DNA of 63,864 bases, filler included, from Rozella allomycis CSF55 (lineage: Eukaryota), in NCBI GenBank assembly GCA_000442015.1. It is 12 parts of 11 records of this genome, joined end to end, with 100 filler letters (N's around TTAATTAATTAA, not from the genome) between each part and the next. Parts side by side here need not be neighbours in the genome. Positions count along the whole stretch, not along the records: positions 1 to 15,783 come from KE561153.1; 11 more parts are not named here. One strand, written 5' to 3'. The first letter of the stretch is position 1, and each line of letters starts with the position of its first letter. Positions 14,202 through 15,748 of this stretch are shown here, piece by piece. The notes under the pieces were generated by a model, which worked only from the letters and a program-made list of their open reading frames with translations, was not told the DNA's origin and did not search any database. The position numbers were made by a program, and so were the translations under genes.

Positions 14202-15748
14202 TTATAATCCACCCCTTCTTGTCATCATATCAAAGCGTTTGTAGGTATAACCAACAAATGCCAAATCTCGACGACGTATTAAGGTTGAGCTCTTTAAATT
14301 TTCAGTGAGATGATTAGTAGTAAGATCTTGAGGCACATCTTCAAGCTCATCTGTCGGAAAGTAGCGGGTATCTGTTAAACTAGTAAGTTCGGGAACAAAT
14401 GGAGGCTTTTGATTTCTGAGATTGTCCCAATCTATTCCTTTAAAAAATGGATGATCTTTAATATCTGAAACAGATTGTCTTCCGAGTCTGTTATCGGCAT
14501 CACATAATAGCCTTTCCAAAGAACACAACATTCTTACTTTCGAATTAGGTCTTCTGCATCAGATGATATGTGAATATCACTTGGGAATTCCAGCTCTGAT
14601 TTCCAAGACAAAATTCTTTTGTAAGTTTCGTGTGGGGAATCGCTGCAAAAGGGTGGGTAACCTGCAAGACATTCAAACAGGATTGCACCCAAACTCCACC
14701 AATCACATTCTTTACCATATCCTTTCTGCATAAAAACTTTTCAAAATTGTATATTATACTACCTTCGGGTGCAATATAATCAGGAGTCCCGACTGTTGAA
14801 TATGCTAATTGACGTCTTGACTTTTTCCAGCTGGCTATTGTATCTTGCTTGCTCACAGTCAAATTATTTTGCACTGTTTTCTTTGGTGTTTCTTGAAGTT
14901 TAGAGTAGTCATACCTTTTGTGGAGGCCGGTTGATAATCCAAAGTCAGATAACTTAACATGTCCCTCCCTATCCACTAATAAGTTATCAGGCTTGATGTC
15001 TGTACTTAATTAAACTTAAAGTTACCCCTAATTCAAAGAATTAATATTTTTTACCTGTGAATAAACCCTAATTGATGCACTGATTCTATAGCCATAACAC
15101 ACTCCGCCATGTAGAATCTGGCAAAATCTTCCGGGAAGATATCATATTTTATAAGCATGGTCATCATATCACCACCTGGAAGGTATTCCATCACCAAGTA
15201 AAGGTAGGTTTCATCCTGAAAACTAAAAAAGAGTTGTACAACCCATGGGGATTCGGAATCTGCCAAAATGTCTCTTTCAGCTTGAACATGAGAAAGCTAG
15301 GAATTTCGTTTATTTGCTATTACTTGATCCCTTTTTAACATTTCCGACTTTCGTAACGTTTTCATGGCGTAAATCTTTCCGCTATCCCGCTTTTGCACCA
15401 AACGAACTTCACCAAAAGCACCTTTTCCTATGACTTTAACTGTCTGAAAATCAGAAATGTCCAATTTAGTCCTTCGAAGGCGAAGGTAATCACTCTCTTT
15501 TGTTCCATATTGGGCAAGAAGTCTTGATTTTCGATCATTGCTATACAATTCACTTTCAATTCGTTTTTCTTCTTCTCTGCGTCTTTATATAGTTGATTTT
15601 TTTACATTTACCTCTTTTCTCTATCAATGGTTTGTTCAATGACTTGCTGATAATATTTCTCAAGCATTAATTTTGCTTTGGCTGCATTGTCGATAGTAAT
15701 TTTAGAATAGCCTTCTGTAGAACGGGTAAAGTCTCCATTGTCAGTCAT
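14202..15748 (-). CDS. CBK1: NDR/LATS-family AGC kinase (Cbk1/Orb6-like)
   Basis: [30 protein letters not shown] (needs 2-nt microexon 15026-15027), [25 protein letters not shown]. Confidence 0.95.

What the first reader, a model, noticed from the sequence alone, without database searches (positions are those of the whole stretch)
15000..15054. Obligatory 2-nt microexon completes the kinase HRD catalytic loop
Seen on the minus strand: CAC AG | 27-nt GT-AG intron (15054-15028) | GG (15027-15026) | 26-nt GT-AG intron (15025-15000) | AC ATC AAG CCT GAT AAC, which gives H-R-D-I-K-P-D-N. A single 55-nt GT-AG intron would frameshift. Known: the HRD aspartate is invariant in protein kinases. Inference: exons this small are possible because splicing is purely intron-defined, and gene predictors will miss them.
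Basis: partly seen in the sequence, partly recalled or inferred. Interest (0 to 1): 0.8.

Follow-up and report, generated by a model that had tools for sequence, protein, structure and literature searches.

The report
Two-base exon in Rozella kinase gene
A cell-shape kinase gene of the fungal parasite Rozella allomycis most likely carries an exon only two bases long between two 26-27-base introns; both public gene models miss it and so give the enzyme a damaged catalytic motif.

Summary
The sequence is exactly as described. The gene (minus strand, 15748-14202) is the NDR/Cbk1/Orb6 kinase of Rozella allomycis CSF55.

A single 50-nt GT-AG intron (15054-15005) is also in frame. Both public gene models use it, and they read His-Ser-Thr-Asp instead of His-Arg-Asp. 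So the microexon is not strictly obligatory.

No RNA data could be reached. Indirect evidence favours two tandem introns (27 and 26 nt) around a GG exon:
- 88 of 89 homologues with the motif read H-R-D; the one exception is the Rozella model itself.
- A family profile prefers the HRD product by 9 bits.
- 41 inferred introns in the window are 24-33 nt long. In 36-37 of them the acceptor is the first AG at least 24-25 nt after the donor.
- Intron 1 sits at an old fungal intron position that is normally followed by N-GAY.
- Only 430 of 1,000,000 shuffles give such a split.

Exons of 1 nt are already published, and this scan has already noted a 2-nt exon in Naegleria. This is therefore a new member of a known kind, and also an annotation error. 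My confidence in the microexon is about 0.78.

The parts
14202..15748 (-). Coding region of the NDR/Cbk1/Orb6-type Ser/Thr kinase gene. It gives 461 aa with the microexon. The public models EPZ32476.1 and RKP19315.1 give 462 aa.
15612..15748 (-). Exon 1, from the ATG
   Evidence: identical to public model P0121
15583..15611 (-). Intron, 29 nt, GT-AG
15324..15582 (-). Exon 2
15297..15323 (-). Intron, 27 nt, GT-AG
15055..15296 (-). Exon 3. It ends with the His codon and the first two bases (AG) of the Arg codon of HRD.
   Evidence: Pfam Pkinase profile positions 44-121; 4lqp Cbk1, E 1.7e-36
15028..15054 (-). Mini-intron 1, 27 nt, GTAAAA...TTTGAATTAG. It lies at the conserved fungal intron position, phase 2 in the Arg codon.
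15026..15027 (-). Proposed 2-nt exon GG: the third base of the Arg codon and the first base of the Asp codon
15000..15025 (-). Mini-intron 2, 26 nt, GTAACT...GTACAG, phase 1 in the Asp codon. No intron at this position was seen in the relatives examined.
   Evidence: no other copy in the window
15005..15006 (-). Alternative acceptor AG used by both public gene models. It makes a 50-nt intron (15054-15005) and the product H-S-T-D.
14763..14999 (-). Exon after the microexon. It starts with AC of the Asp codon, then I-K-P-D-N.
   Evidence: Pfam Pkinase profile positions 124-161
14737..14762 (-). Intron, 26 nt, GT-AG
14538..14736 (-). Exon
14512..14537 (-). Intron, 26 nt, GT-AG
14202..14511 (-). 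Last exon, with the AGC C-terminal tail and a TAA stop
   Evidence: Pfam Pkinase_C

Best explanation
The pre-mRNA of the Rozella allomycis Cbk1/Orb6 kinase is spliced here as two separate mini-introns (27 nt, 15054-15028; 26 nt, 15025-15000), each of ordinary size for this organism. The two bases between them (GG, 15027-15026) stay in the mRNA. The first G completes the Arg codon and the second G starts the Asp codon of the catalytic His-Arg-Asp loop.

Shown: the sequence; the reading frames; the canonical splice dinucleotides; the typical lengths; and the fit of the product to the family.

Inferred:
- Rozella's spliceosome recognises each roughly 26-29-nt unit by itself, pairing a GTA donor with the first AG about 25 nt or more downstream.
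- The two introns leave one after the other. The U1 site of intron 2 overlaps the acceptor of intron 1, so both can hardly be occupied at once.
- Either order gives the same product. The last four bases before donor 2 (AGGG) are the same before and after intron 1 is removed.
- Intron 1 is the old fungal intron, and intron 2 was gained 2 nt downstream in the Rozella lineage.

The public models, which have a 50-nt intron and read HSTD, are taken to be predictor artefacts.
For: 1. Family fit. Exon 3 matches Pkinase profile positions 44-121 and the next exon 124-161. Exactly two positions (Arg, Asp) are left to fill, not three.

2. Conservation of the motif. Of 120 homologues, 89 carry the motif. 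88 read H-R-D, and the only H-ST-D is the Rozella model. Of 80 metagenome loci, 79 encode H-R-D, with or without an intron.

3. Profile score. A profile of 71 homologues scores the HRD product at 752.5 bits and the public HSTD product at 743.4 bits.

4. Intron lengths. 41 inferred GTA...AG introns in the window are 24-33 nt long, with the mode at 26-28. Three were checked by Pfam continuity across the junction and are 27, 26 and 27 nt. The four other introns of this gene are 29, 27, 26 and 26 nt and agree with the public model.

5. Acceptor rule. In 36 of 41 introns (threshold 24 nt) and 37 of 41 (threshold 25 nt), the acceptor is the first AG at or beyond that distance from the donor. Donor 1 has AGs at +27, +40, +50 and +55. 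Donor 2 has AGs at +11, +21 and +26.

6. No long introns. Among junction candidates with coding-like flanks, the only ones above 40 nt are this one and a frame break in a decayed retroelement.

7. Old intron position. 32 of 80 relatives have a single intron at exactly the position of donor 1, and its acceptor is followed by N-GAY. In Rozella the first acceptor is followed by GG, as in L034, L053 and L062, which have G-GAC there.

8. Chance. 430 of 1,000,000 shuffles give such a split.

9. Retention. Keeping either mini-intron gives an in-frame stop.
Against: - There is no RNA evidence. No RNA run holding the stretch was listed, and the one run laid did not cover the junction (no weight either way).
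- A canonical in-frame alternative exists, the 50-nt GT-AG intron, and two public annotations chose it.
- Splice-site scores do not separate the models. The acceptor of the 50-nt intron scores 5.3 bits, against 4.0 and 5.0 bits for the two mini-introns.
- The intron set is inferred from reading frames, not from transcripts. It was built by taking the shortest GTA...AG candidate, so the length argument is partly circular.
- This is the only convincing case in 64 kb. Nothing here shows independently that Rozella can splice a 2-nt exon.
- No close relative's DNA was reachable to test conservation. The best metagenome match is 62% identical.
Confidence: 0.78

Rival explanations
1. The public gene models are right. 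One 50-nt GT-AG intron (15054-15005) is removed, and the kinase really has His-Ser-Thr-Asp in its catalytic loop, or this form is made alongside the HRD form.
For: The intron has canonical GT-AG ends and is in frame, and it reproduces P0121 exactly. Its acceptor scores as well as the others, 5.3 bits. Two separate annotations of two assemblies chose it.
Against: The product has an extra residue and lacks the Arg in a motif that 88 of 89 homologues keep, and it loses 9 bits against the family profile. Its length would be about twice that of every other inferred intron in a real gene in the window. It has to skip two AGs, at +27 and +40, whereas in 41 introns a skipped AG lies at most 5 nt before the one used. 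Gene predictors cannot-nt exons, so their choice is no evidence from RNA.
Confidence: 0.12
2. One 53-nt non-canonical intron is removed, either GT...AC (15054-15002) or TA...CA (15053-15001). This gives the same HRD protein without any microexon.
For: Both variants give the 461-aa HRD protein. The mRNA would be one base different for GT-AC, or identical for TA-CA, so RNA alone cannot fully exclude the TA-CA variant.
Against: The AC acceptor scores -0.4 bits. All 41 inferred introns end in AG, but that follows from how the set was chosen. The donor GTAAAA has none of the U12-type donor motif (a recalled consensus). A 53-nt intron is also far outside the length class. The reading A-GAC arises automatically from any AG acceptor placed in front of AC.
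Confidence: 0.02
3. The locus is not a working gene as read: either a sequencing or assembly error at the junction, or a decaying or catalytically dead kinase copy.
For: The assembly is a draft with scattered N and short contigs. The two public proteins of the same strain differ at two residues.
Against: The rest of the gene is intact and strongly conserved. Exon 3 has a full-length match to yeast Cbk1 at E 1.7e-36 and is about 80% identical to other fungi. Two assemblies give the same protein around the junction. The two mini-introns are unlike each other, so they are not a duplication artefact.
Confidence: 0.05

Closest known systems
Single-nucleotide exon of Arabidopsis APC11 (Guo and Liu 2015, PMC4674806; abstract and outline read) and 1-nt exons of plant APC11/VPS55 (Yu et al. 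2022, PMC8831610; passages read)
   Same: A constitutive exon shorter than a codon lies between two spliceosomal introns. It is needed for a conserved protein and is missing from reference annotations.
   Different: Those are 1 nt long, flanked by introns of ordinary plant size, and proven by RT-PCR and RNA-seq. This one is 2 nt long, flanked by two of the shortest kind of spliceosomal introns (27 and 26 nt), and has no RNA proof yet.
One-nucleotide exon of Fusarium CYP621A P450 genes (Nelson and Syed 2026, PMC12940212; abstract read)
   Same: It is fungal. The ultra-short exon sits inside a codon of a conserved motif. It was found by comparison with relatives, and leaving it out breaks the protein.
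   Different: It is supported by reads from public runs and 20 orthologues. Here leaving the exon out does not break the frame, because a 50-nt alternative exists, which is why the error went unnoticed.
Earlier findings of this scan: a 2-nt TG exon in Naegleria zinc-cluster genes (e1-636783) and a 10-nt HRDL exon in a Naegleria kinase (e1-636804)
   Same: The same kind of feature, also in a small-intron protist-grade genome, and partly also missed by public models.
   Different: A different organism and gene. These are AI notes that I did not re-test.
Stwintrons, the nested spliceosomal twin introns of filamentous fungi (PMC9024468, PMC12403724; search listing and abstracts only)
   Same: Two consecutive splicing reactions within one short intervening stretch of a fungal gene.
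   Different: In a stwintron the inner intron interrupts a splice signal of the outer one and no exon base lies between them. Here no nested solution gives canonical sites (reasoned from the sequence). The two introns stand side by side and two bases are kept.
Organisms with uniformly tiny introns, such as Paramecium (about 25 nt), Stentor (15-16 nt) and the Bigelowiella nucleomorph (18-21 nt); all recalled, no call
   Same: A narrow intron length class, and recognition of the intron as a unit.
   Different: Rozella is a fungal relative that uses the standard code.

Membership tests
NDR/LATS (Cbk1/Orb6) AGC protein kinase | Protein kinase catalytic domain followed by an AGC C-terminal tail | tested here: met
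   Pkinase on exons 3 and 4 (E 1.2e-13 and 3.2e-9) and Pkinase_C on the last exon.
NDR/LATS (Cbk1/Orb6) AGC protein kinase | Closest relatives are Cbk1/NDR kinases rather than other AGC kinases | tested here: met
   The best solved structure is yeast Cbk1 (4lqp, E 1.7e-36), followed by human STK38. The public name is orb6.
NDR/LATS (Cbk1/Orb6) AGC protein kinase | His-Arg-Asp catalytic loop | tested here: inconclusive
   Present only if the GG exon is kept. The public models read HSTD. No RNA data.
NDR/LATS (Cbk1/Orb6) AGC protein kinase | Insert between subdomains VII and VIII, and a C-terminal hydrophobic motif (features recalled, not taken from a call) | tested here: met
   The model has about 40 residues between DFG and the APE region and ends with ...FVGYTYKRF.... 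Seen by eye only.
Ultra-short coding microexon (1-3 nt) between spliceosomal introns | Two complete canonical introns directly flank the bases that are kept | tested here: met
   GTA...AG of 27 nt and GTA...AG of 26 nt. Their donor and acceptor scores lie within the range of 38 other introns.
Ultra-short coding microexon (1-3 nt) between spliceosomal introns | The kept bases are needed for a conserved protein feature | tested here: met
   They restore Arg-Asp, which 88 of 89 homologues have, and add 9.1 bits.
Ultra-short coding microexon (1-3 nt) between spliceosomal introns | The spliced mRNA contains the microexon | not testable with these tools
   No RNA holder was listed, and the run that was laid has no cover at the junction.
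Ultra-short coding microexon (1-3 nt) between spliceosomal introns | Conserved in related species | not testable with these tools
   No close relative's DNA was found (best 62% identity). None of the 80 distant relatives has the second intron.
Stwintron (nested twin intron) | An inner intron interrupts the donor, branch site or acceptor of an outer intron, and no exon bases lie between them | tested here: not met
   From the sequence, no removal of an inner GT-AG piece leaves an outer GT-AG intron whose removal gives an in-frame HRD.
U12-type or other non-canonical single intron | A strongly conserved U12 donor and branch motif (recalled consensus), or AT-AC ends | tested here: not met
   The donor is GTAAAAAA and the required 3' end would be AC with a GT donor. 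Acceptor score -0.4 bits.

The most novel reading that the evidence does not exclude
Rozella's spliceosome may measure intron length so strictly (a GTA donor paired with the first AG about 25-30 nt downstream) that anything longer can only be removed as a chain of mini-introns. If so, exons of 0-5 nt would be a regular, unannotated by-product across the genome. Rozella would then be a natural system for finding the lower size limit of an exon under pure intron definition, and for watching an intron gained 2 nt from an ancient one.
Probability: 0.2. Interest if true: 0.6.

Novelty: new member of a known kind. Interest (0 to 1): 0.4.

Why it matters
If the reading is right, both public protein records of an important morphogenesis kinase in the best-studied member of the Rozella lineage, which branches deep in the fungal tree, carry a false catalytic loop. 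That could mislead kinome surveys into calling it an atypical or dead kinase.

It would also add a 2-nt exon flanked by 26-27-nt introns, 55 nt in all. This is a stringent natural test of how close a 3' and a 5' splice site can lie.

Finally, it points to a simple check for annotations of tiny-intron genomes: look at introns about twice the usual length for an inner AG-N(0-6)-GT.

Tried and rejected
- RNA evidence. The run search listed no RNA holder. The single run offered, laid at 90% likeness, gave three short unrelated pieces and nothing at the junction.
- Whole genome. None is held for this window.
- First intron scan. With 25-codon flanks it did not discriminate, and the control dinucleotide pairs scored the same. 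I replaced it with 50-codon open segments.
- Splice-site matrices and branch-point search. They carry little information beyond GTA(A)...AG and found no clear branch motif. TTTGA lies 4-6 nt from the 3' end in 5 introns of the set, and intron 1 has it at 5 nt. The matrices cannot separate the models.
- Other tandem mini-introns in the window. A loose scan gave 82 combinations and a strict one 25. Only this one has two AT-rich GTA introns of typical length and coding flanks.
- Long introns. The candidates of 56 and 57 nt turned out to be frame breaks in a decayed retroelement.
- Repeat origin of intron 2. There is no other copy within 3 mismatches.
- Close relatives. The metagenome scan gave 80 loci, the best 62% identical, and no Rozella-like locus.
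- Literature. No paper holds both 'Rozella' and 'microexon' (0 papers). The spelling 'micro-exon' was covered only by the ranked top 10 of 190 papers, none of which holds 'Rozella'. Supplementary tables that may give Rozella's intron lengths (PMC8042348, Table S7) are closed.

Full report
**What is there.** On the minus strand the window reads, in order:
- an exon ending ...TTCACAG at 15055;
- a 27-nt stretch GTAAAA...GAATTAG (15054-15028);
- GG (15027-15026);
- a 26-nt stretch GTAACT...GTACAG (15025-15000);
- ACATCAAGCCTGATAAC from 14999.

The window itself is a chain of small contigs joined by N44-TTAATTAATTAA-N44 linkers. The gene lies on the first contig, 1-15783.

**The gene.** With four further GT-AG introns of 29, 27, 26 and 26 nt, the frame runs from an ATG at 15748 to a TAA at 14202.
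- Exon 3 matches Pfam Pkinase positions 44-121, the exon after the junction matches 124-161, and the last exon matches Pkinase_C.
- The best solved structure is yeast Cbk1 (4lqp, E 1.7e-36), followed by human STK38.
- A database search finds a 100% match named 'serine/threonine-protein kinase orb6 [Rozella allomycis CSF55]' (P0002).
- Its cluster has a second member, EPZ32476.1 (P0121), seen on a contig of 15,783 bases. That is the length of the window's first contig.

So this is the NDR/Cbk1/Orb6 kinase of Rozella allomycis.

Both public proteins are 462 aa long and read [12 protein letters not shown]. A script that removes a single 50-nt GT-AG intron (15054-15005) reproduces P0121 letter for letter. 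There is therefore a canonical, in-frame way to splice this gene without any microexon, and 'obligatory' is too strong. The open question is which of these paths the cell uses:
- (A) two mini-introns with GG kept, giving HRD;
- (H) one 50-nt intron, giving HSTD;
- (C/D) one 53-nt intron with non-canonical ends, giving HRD.

A single 55-nt intron shifts the frame, and keeping either mini-intron runs into a stop codon.

**Protein evidence.**
- The two flanking exons leave exactly two Pkinase profile positions open, not three.
- Of the 120 best homologues of exon 3, 89 carry the motif. 88 read H-R-D, and the single H-ST-D is the Rozella model. The other 31 lack the full motif and are mostly gene calls on short contigs that stop or run on after G-F-I-H-R.
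- A profile built from 71 full-length homologues scores product A at 752.5 bits and product H at 743.4 bits.

**Intron evidence within the window.**
- I joined open segments of at least 50 codons with the shortest GTA...AG candidate. This gave 53 candidates of 40 nt or less and 22 of 41-75 nt.
- 41 candidates fall at 24-33 nt, with the peak at 26-28.
- Among the 28 candidates whose two flanks both look coding by codon usage, the lengths are 18-22 (4 candidates; for three of them a 26-28-nt alternative exists), 24-32 (21 candidates), 40, 50 and 56. The 50 is the public intron of this gene. The 56 is a frame break in what looks like a decayed copia-type retroelement (the identification is by eye).
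- Pfam continuity confirms three of the short introns: Phosphorylase 242-374 then 376-612; Biotin_carb_N 2-80 then 82-110; Pkinase 2-67 then 73-204.
- In 36 of 41 introns (threshold 24 nt) and 37 of 41 (threshold 25 nt), the acceptor is the first AG at or beyond that distance from the donor. A skipped AG never lies more than 5 nt before the one used.
- By this rule donor 1 (AGs at +27, +40, +50, +55) takes +27, and donor 2 (AGs at +11, +21, +26) takes +26. That is model A. Model H would have to skip two AGs and 23 nt.
- Site matrices do not help. The acceptors score 4.0, 5.0 and 5.3 bits, and only the AC acceptor of model C is poor at -0.4 bits.
- No clear branch motif exists, in line with a remark in PMC6349667 that Rozella's roughly 30-nt introns lack the usual motifs (passage).

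These introns are inferred from frames, not from RNA, and choosing the shortest candidate biases the set towards short lengths.

**Comparative evidence.** None is close; the best segment is 62% identical.
- 47 loci encode H-R-D without interruption.
- 32 have one intron of 30-72 nt after the second base of the Arg codon, followed by N-GAY.
- None has an intron in the Asp codon.
- In one locus (L065) the motif was not found.

Donor 1 of Rozella sits at this old position, and its +27 acceptor is followed by GG, just as L034, L053 and L062 have G-GAC there. The simplest history is an old intron plus a second one gained two bases downstream. How it was gained is unknown. The two introns are unlike each other, and intron 2 has no other copy in the window.

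**Chance.** Of 1,000,000 shuffles of the interior of the 55 nt, 7,487 gave any AG-NN-GTA split with both halves 24-33 nt long, and 430 of those also restored Arg-Asp.

**What could not be done.** No RNA run holding the stretch was listed, and the one run laid gave nothing at the junction. No whole genome is held.

**Mechanism (inferred).** Each mini-intron is recognised as a unit of ordinary size. The donor of intron 2 and the acceptor of intron 1 are two bases apart, so they can hardly be bound at the same time, and the introns should leave one after the other. Either order gives the same mRNA. The four bases before donor 2 are AGGG both before and after intron 1 is removed.

**Comparison with what is known.** Exons of 1 nt are proven in Arabidopsis APC11 (PMC4674806, abstract), in plant VPS55 (PMC8831610, passages) and in Fusarium CYP621A (PMC12940212, abstract). 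This scan has itself noted a 2-nt exon in Naegleria (e1-636783). No paper in the library holds both 'Rozella' and 'microexon'.

**Verdict.** This is a new member of a known kind and a probable error in two public records. My confidence in the microexon is about 0.78 and my interest score is 0.4.

Noticed in passing
whole window; for example 15784-15883, 18729-18828, 21134-21233: The window is a pseudo-scaffold. At least twelve small contigs (about 1-16 kb) are joined by N44-TTAATTAATTAA-N44 linkers, single N are scattered through it, and there is a 174-N run near the end.
   Followed up: partly
window-wide; for example 37441-37467 (+), 7242-7217 (-), 54164-54138 (-): Rozella's introns here form a very narrow class. 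They start with GTA(A), are 24-33 nt long (mode 26-28), are AT-rich (28% GC) and have no clear branch motif. The acceptor is usually the first AG at least about 25 nt from the donor.
   Followed up: yes
46964-46937 (-) and 45648-45622 (-): Two neighbouring genes on the minus strand both look like G-protein alpha subunits. Each has a 27-28-nt intron splitting the Gly codon just before the G-E-S-G-K-(S/T) loop. Only the second was checked with Pfam, as G-alpha. They look like tandem paralogues that share an intron position.
   Followed up: partly
contig 32612-34771, + strand, frame breaks near 32874-32929 and 33425-33481: Open frames with the look of a copia-type reverse transcriptase / RNase H are interrupted by frame breaks that mimic 56-57-nt introns. 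This is probably a decayed retroelement (identified by eye, no family search was run).
   Followed up: no
residues 5 and 130 of the kinase (about 15736-15734 and 15332-15330, - strand): The two public proteins of the same strain differ at two residues: Gly/Thr at residue 5 and Arg/Lys at residue 130. The window matches EPZ32476.1. This could be allelic difference or assembly error.
   Followed up: no
36370-36448 (+), in the glycogen phosphorylase gene: There may be a 24-nt exon between a 27-nt and a 28-nt intron. The competing 19-nt candidate looks too short. Not resolved.
   Followed up: no
39128-41299 (+): A long open frame contains near-identical repeated units. The same 35-nt and 28-nt strings recur at 93-nt steps. 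It looks like an ankyrin-type repeat protein; I did not check this.
   Followed up: no
L037 and L041 (metagenome loci): Two unrelated environmental relatives carry 30-nt introns at the same Arg-codon position. One database protein (P0009) reads straight through such a 30-nt intron. Very short introns at this site are therefore not unique to Rozella.
   Followed up: no
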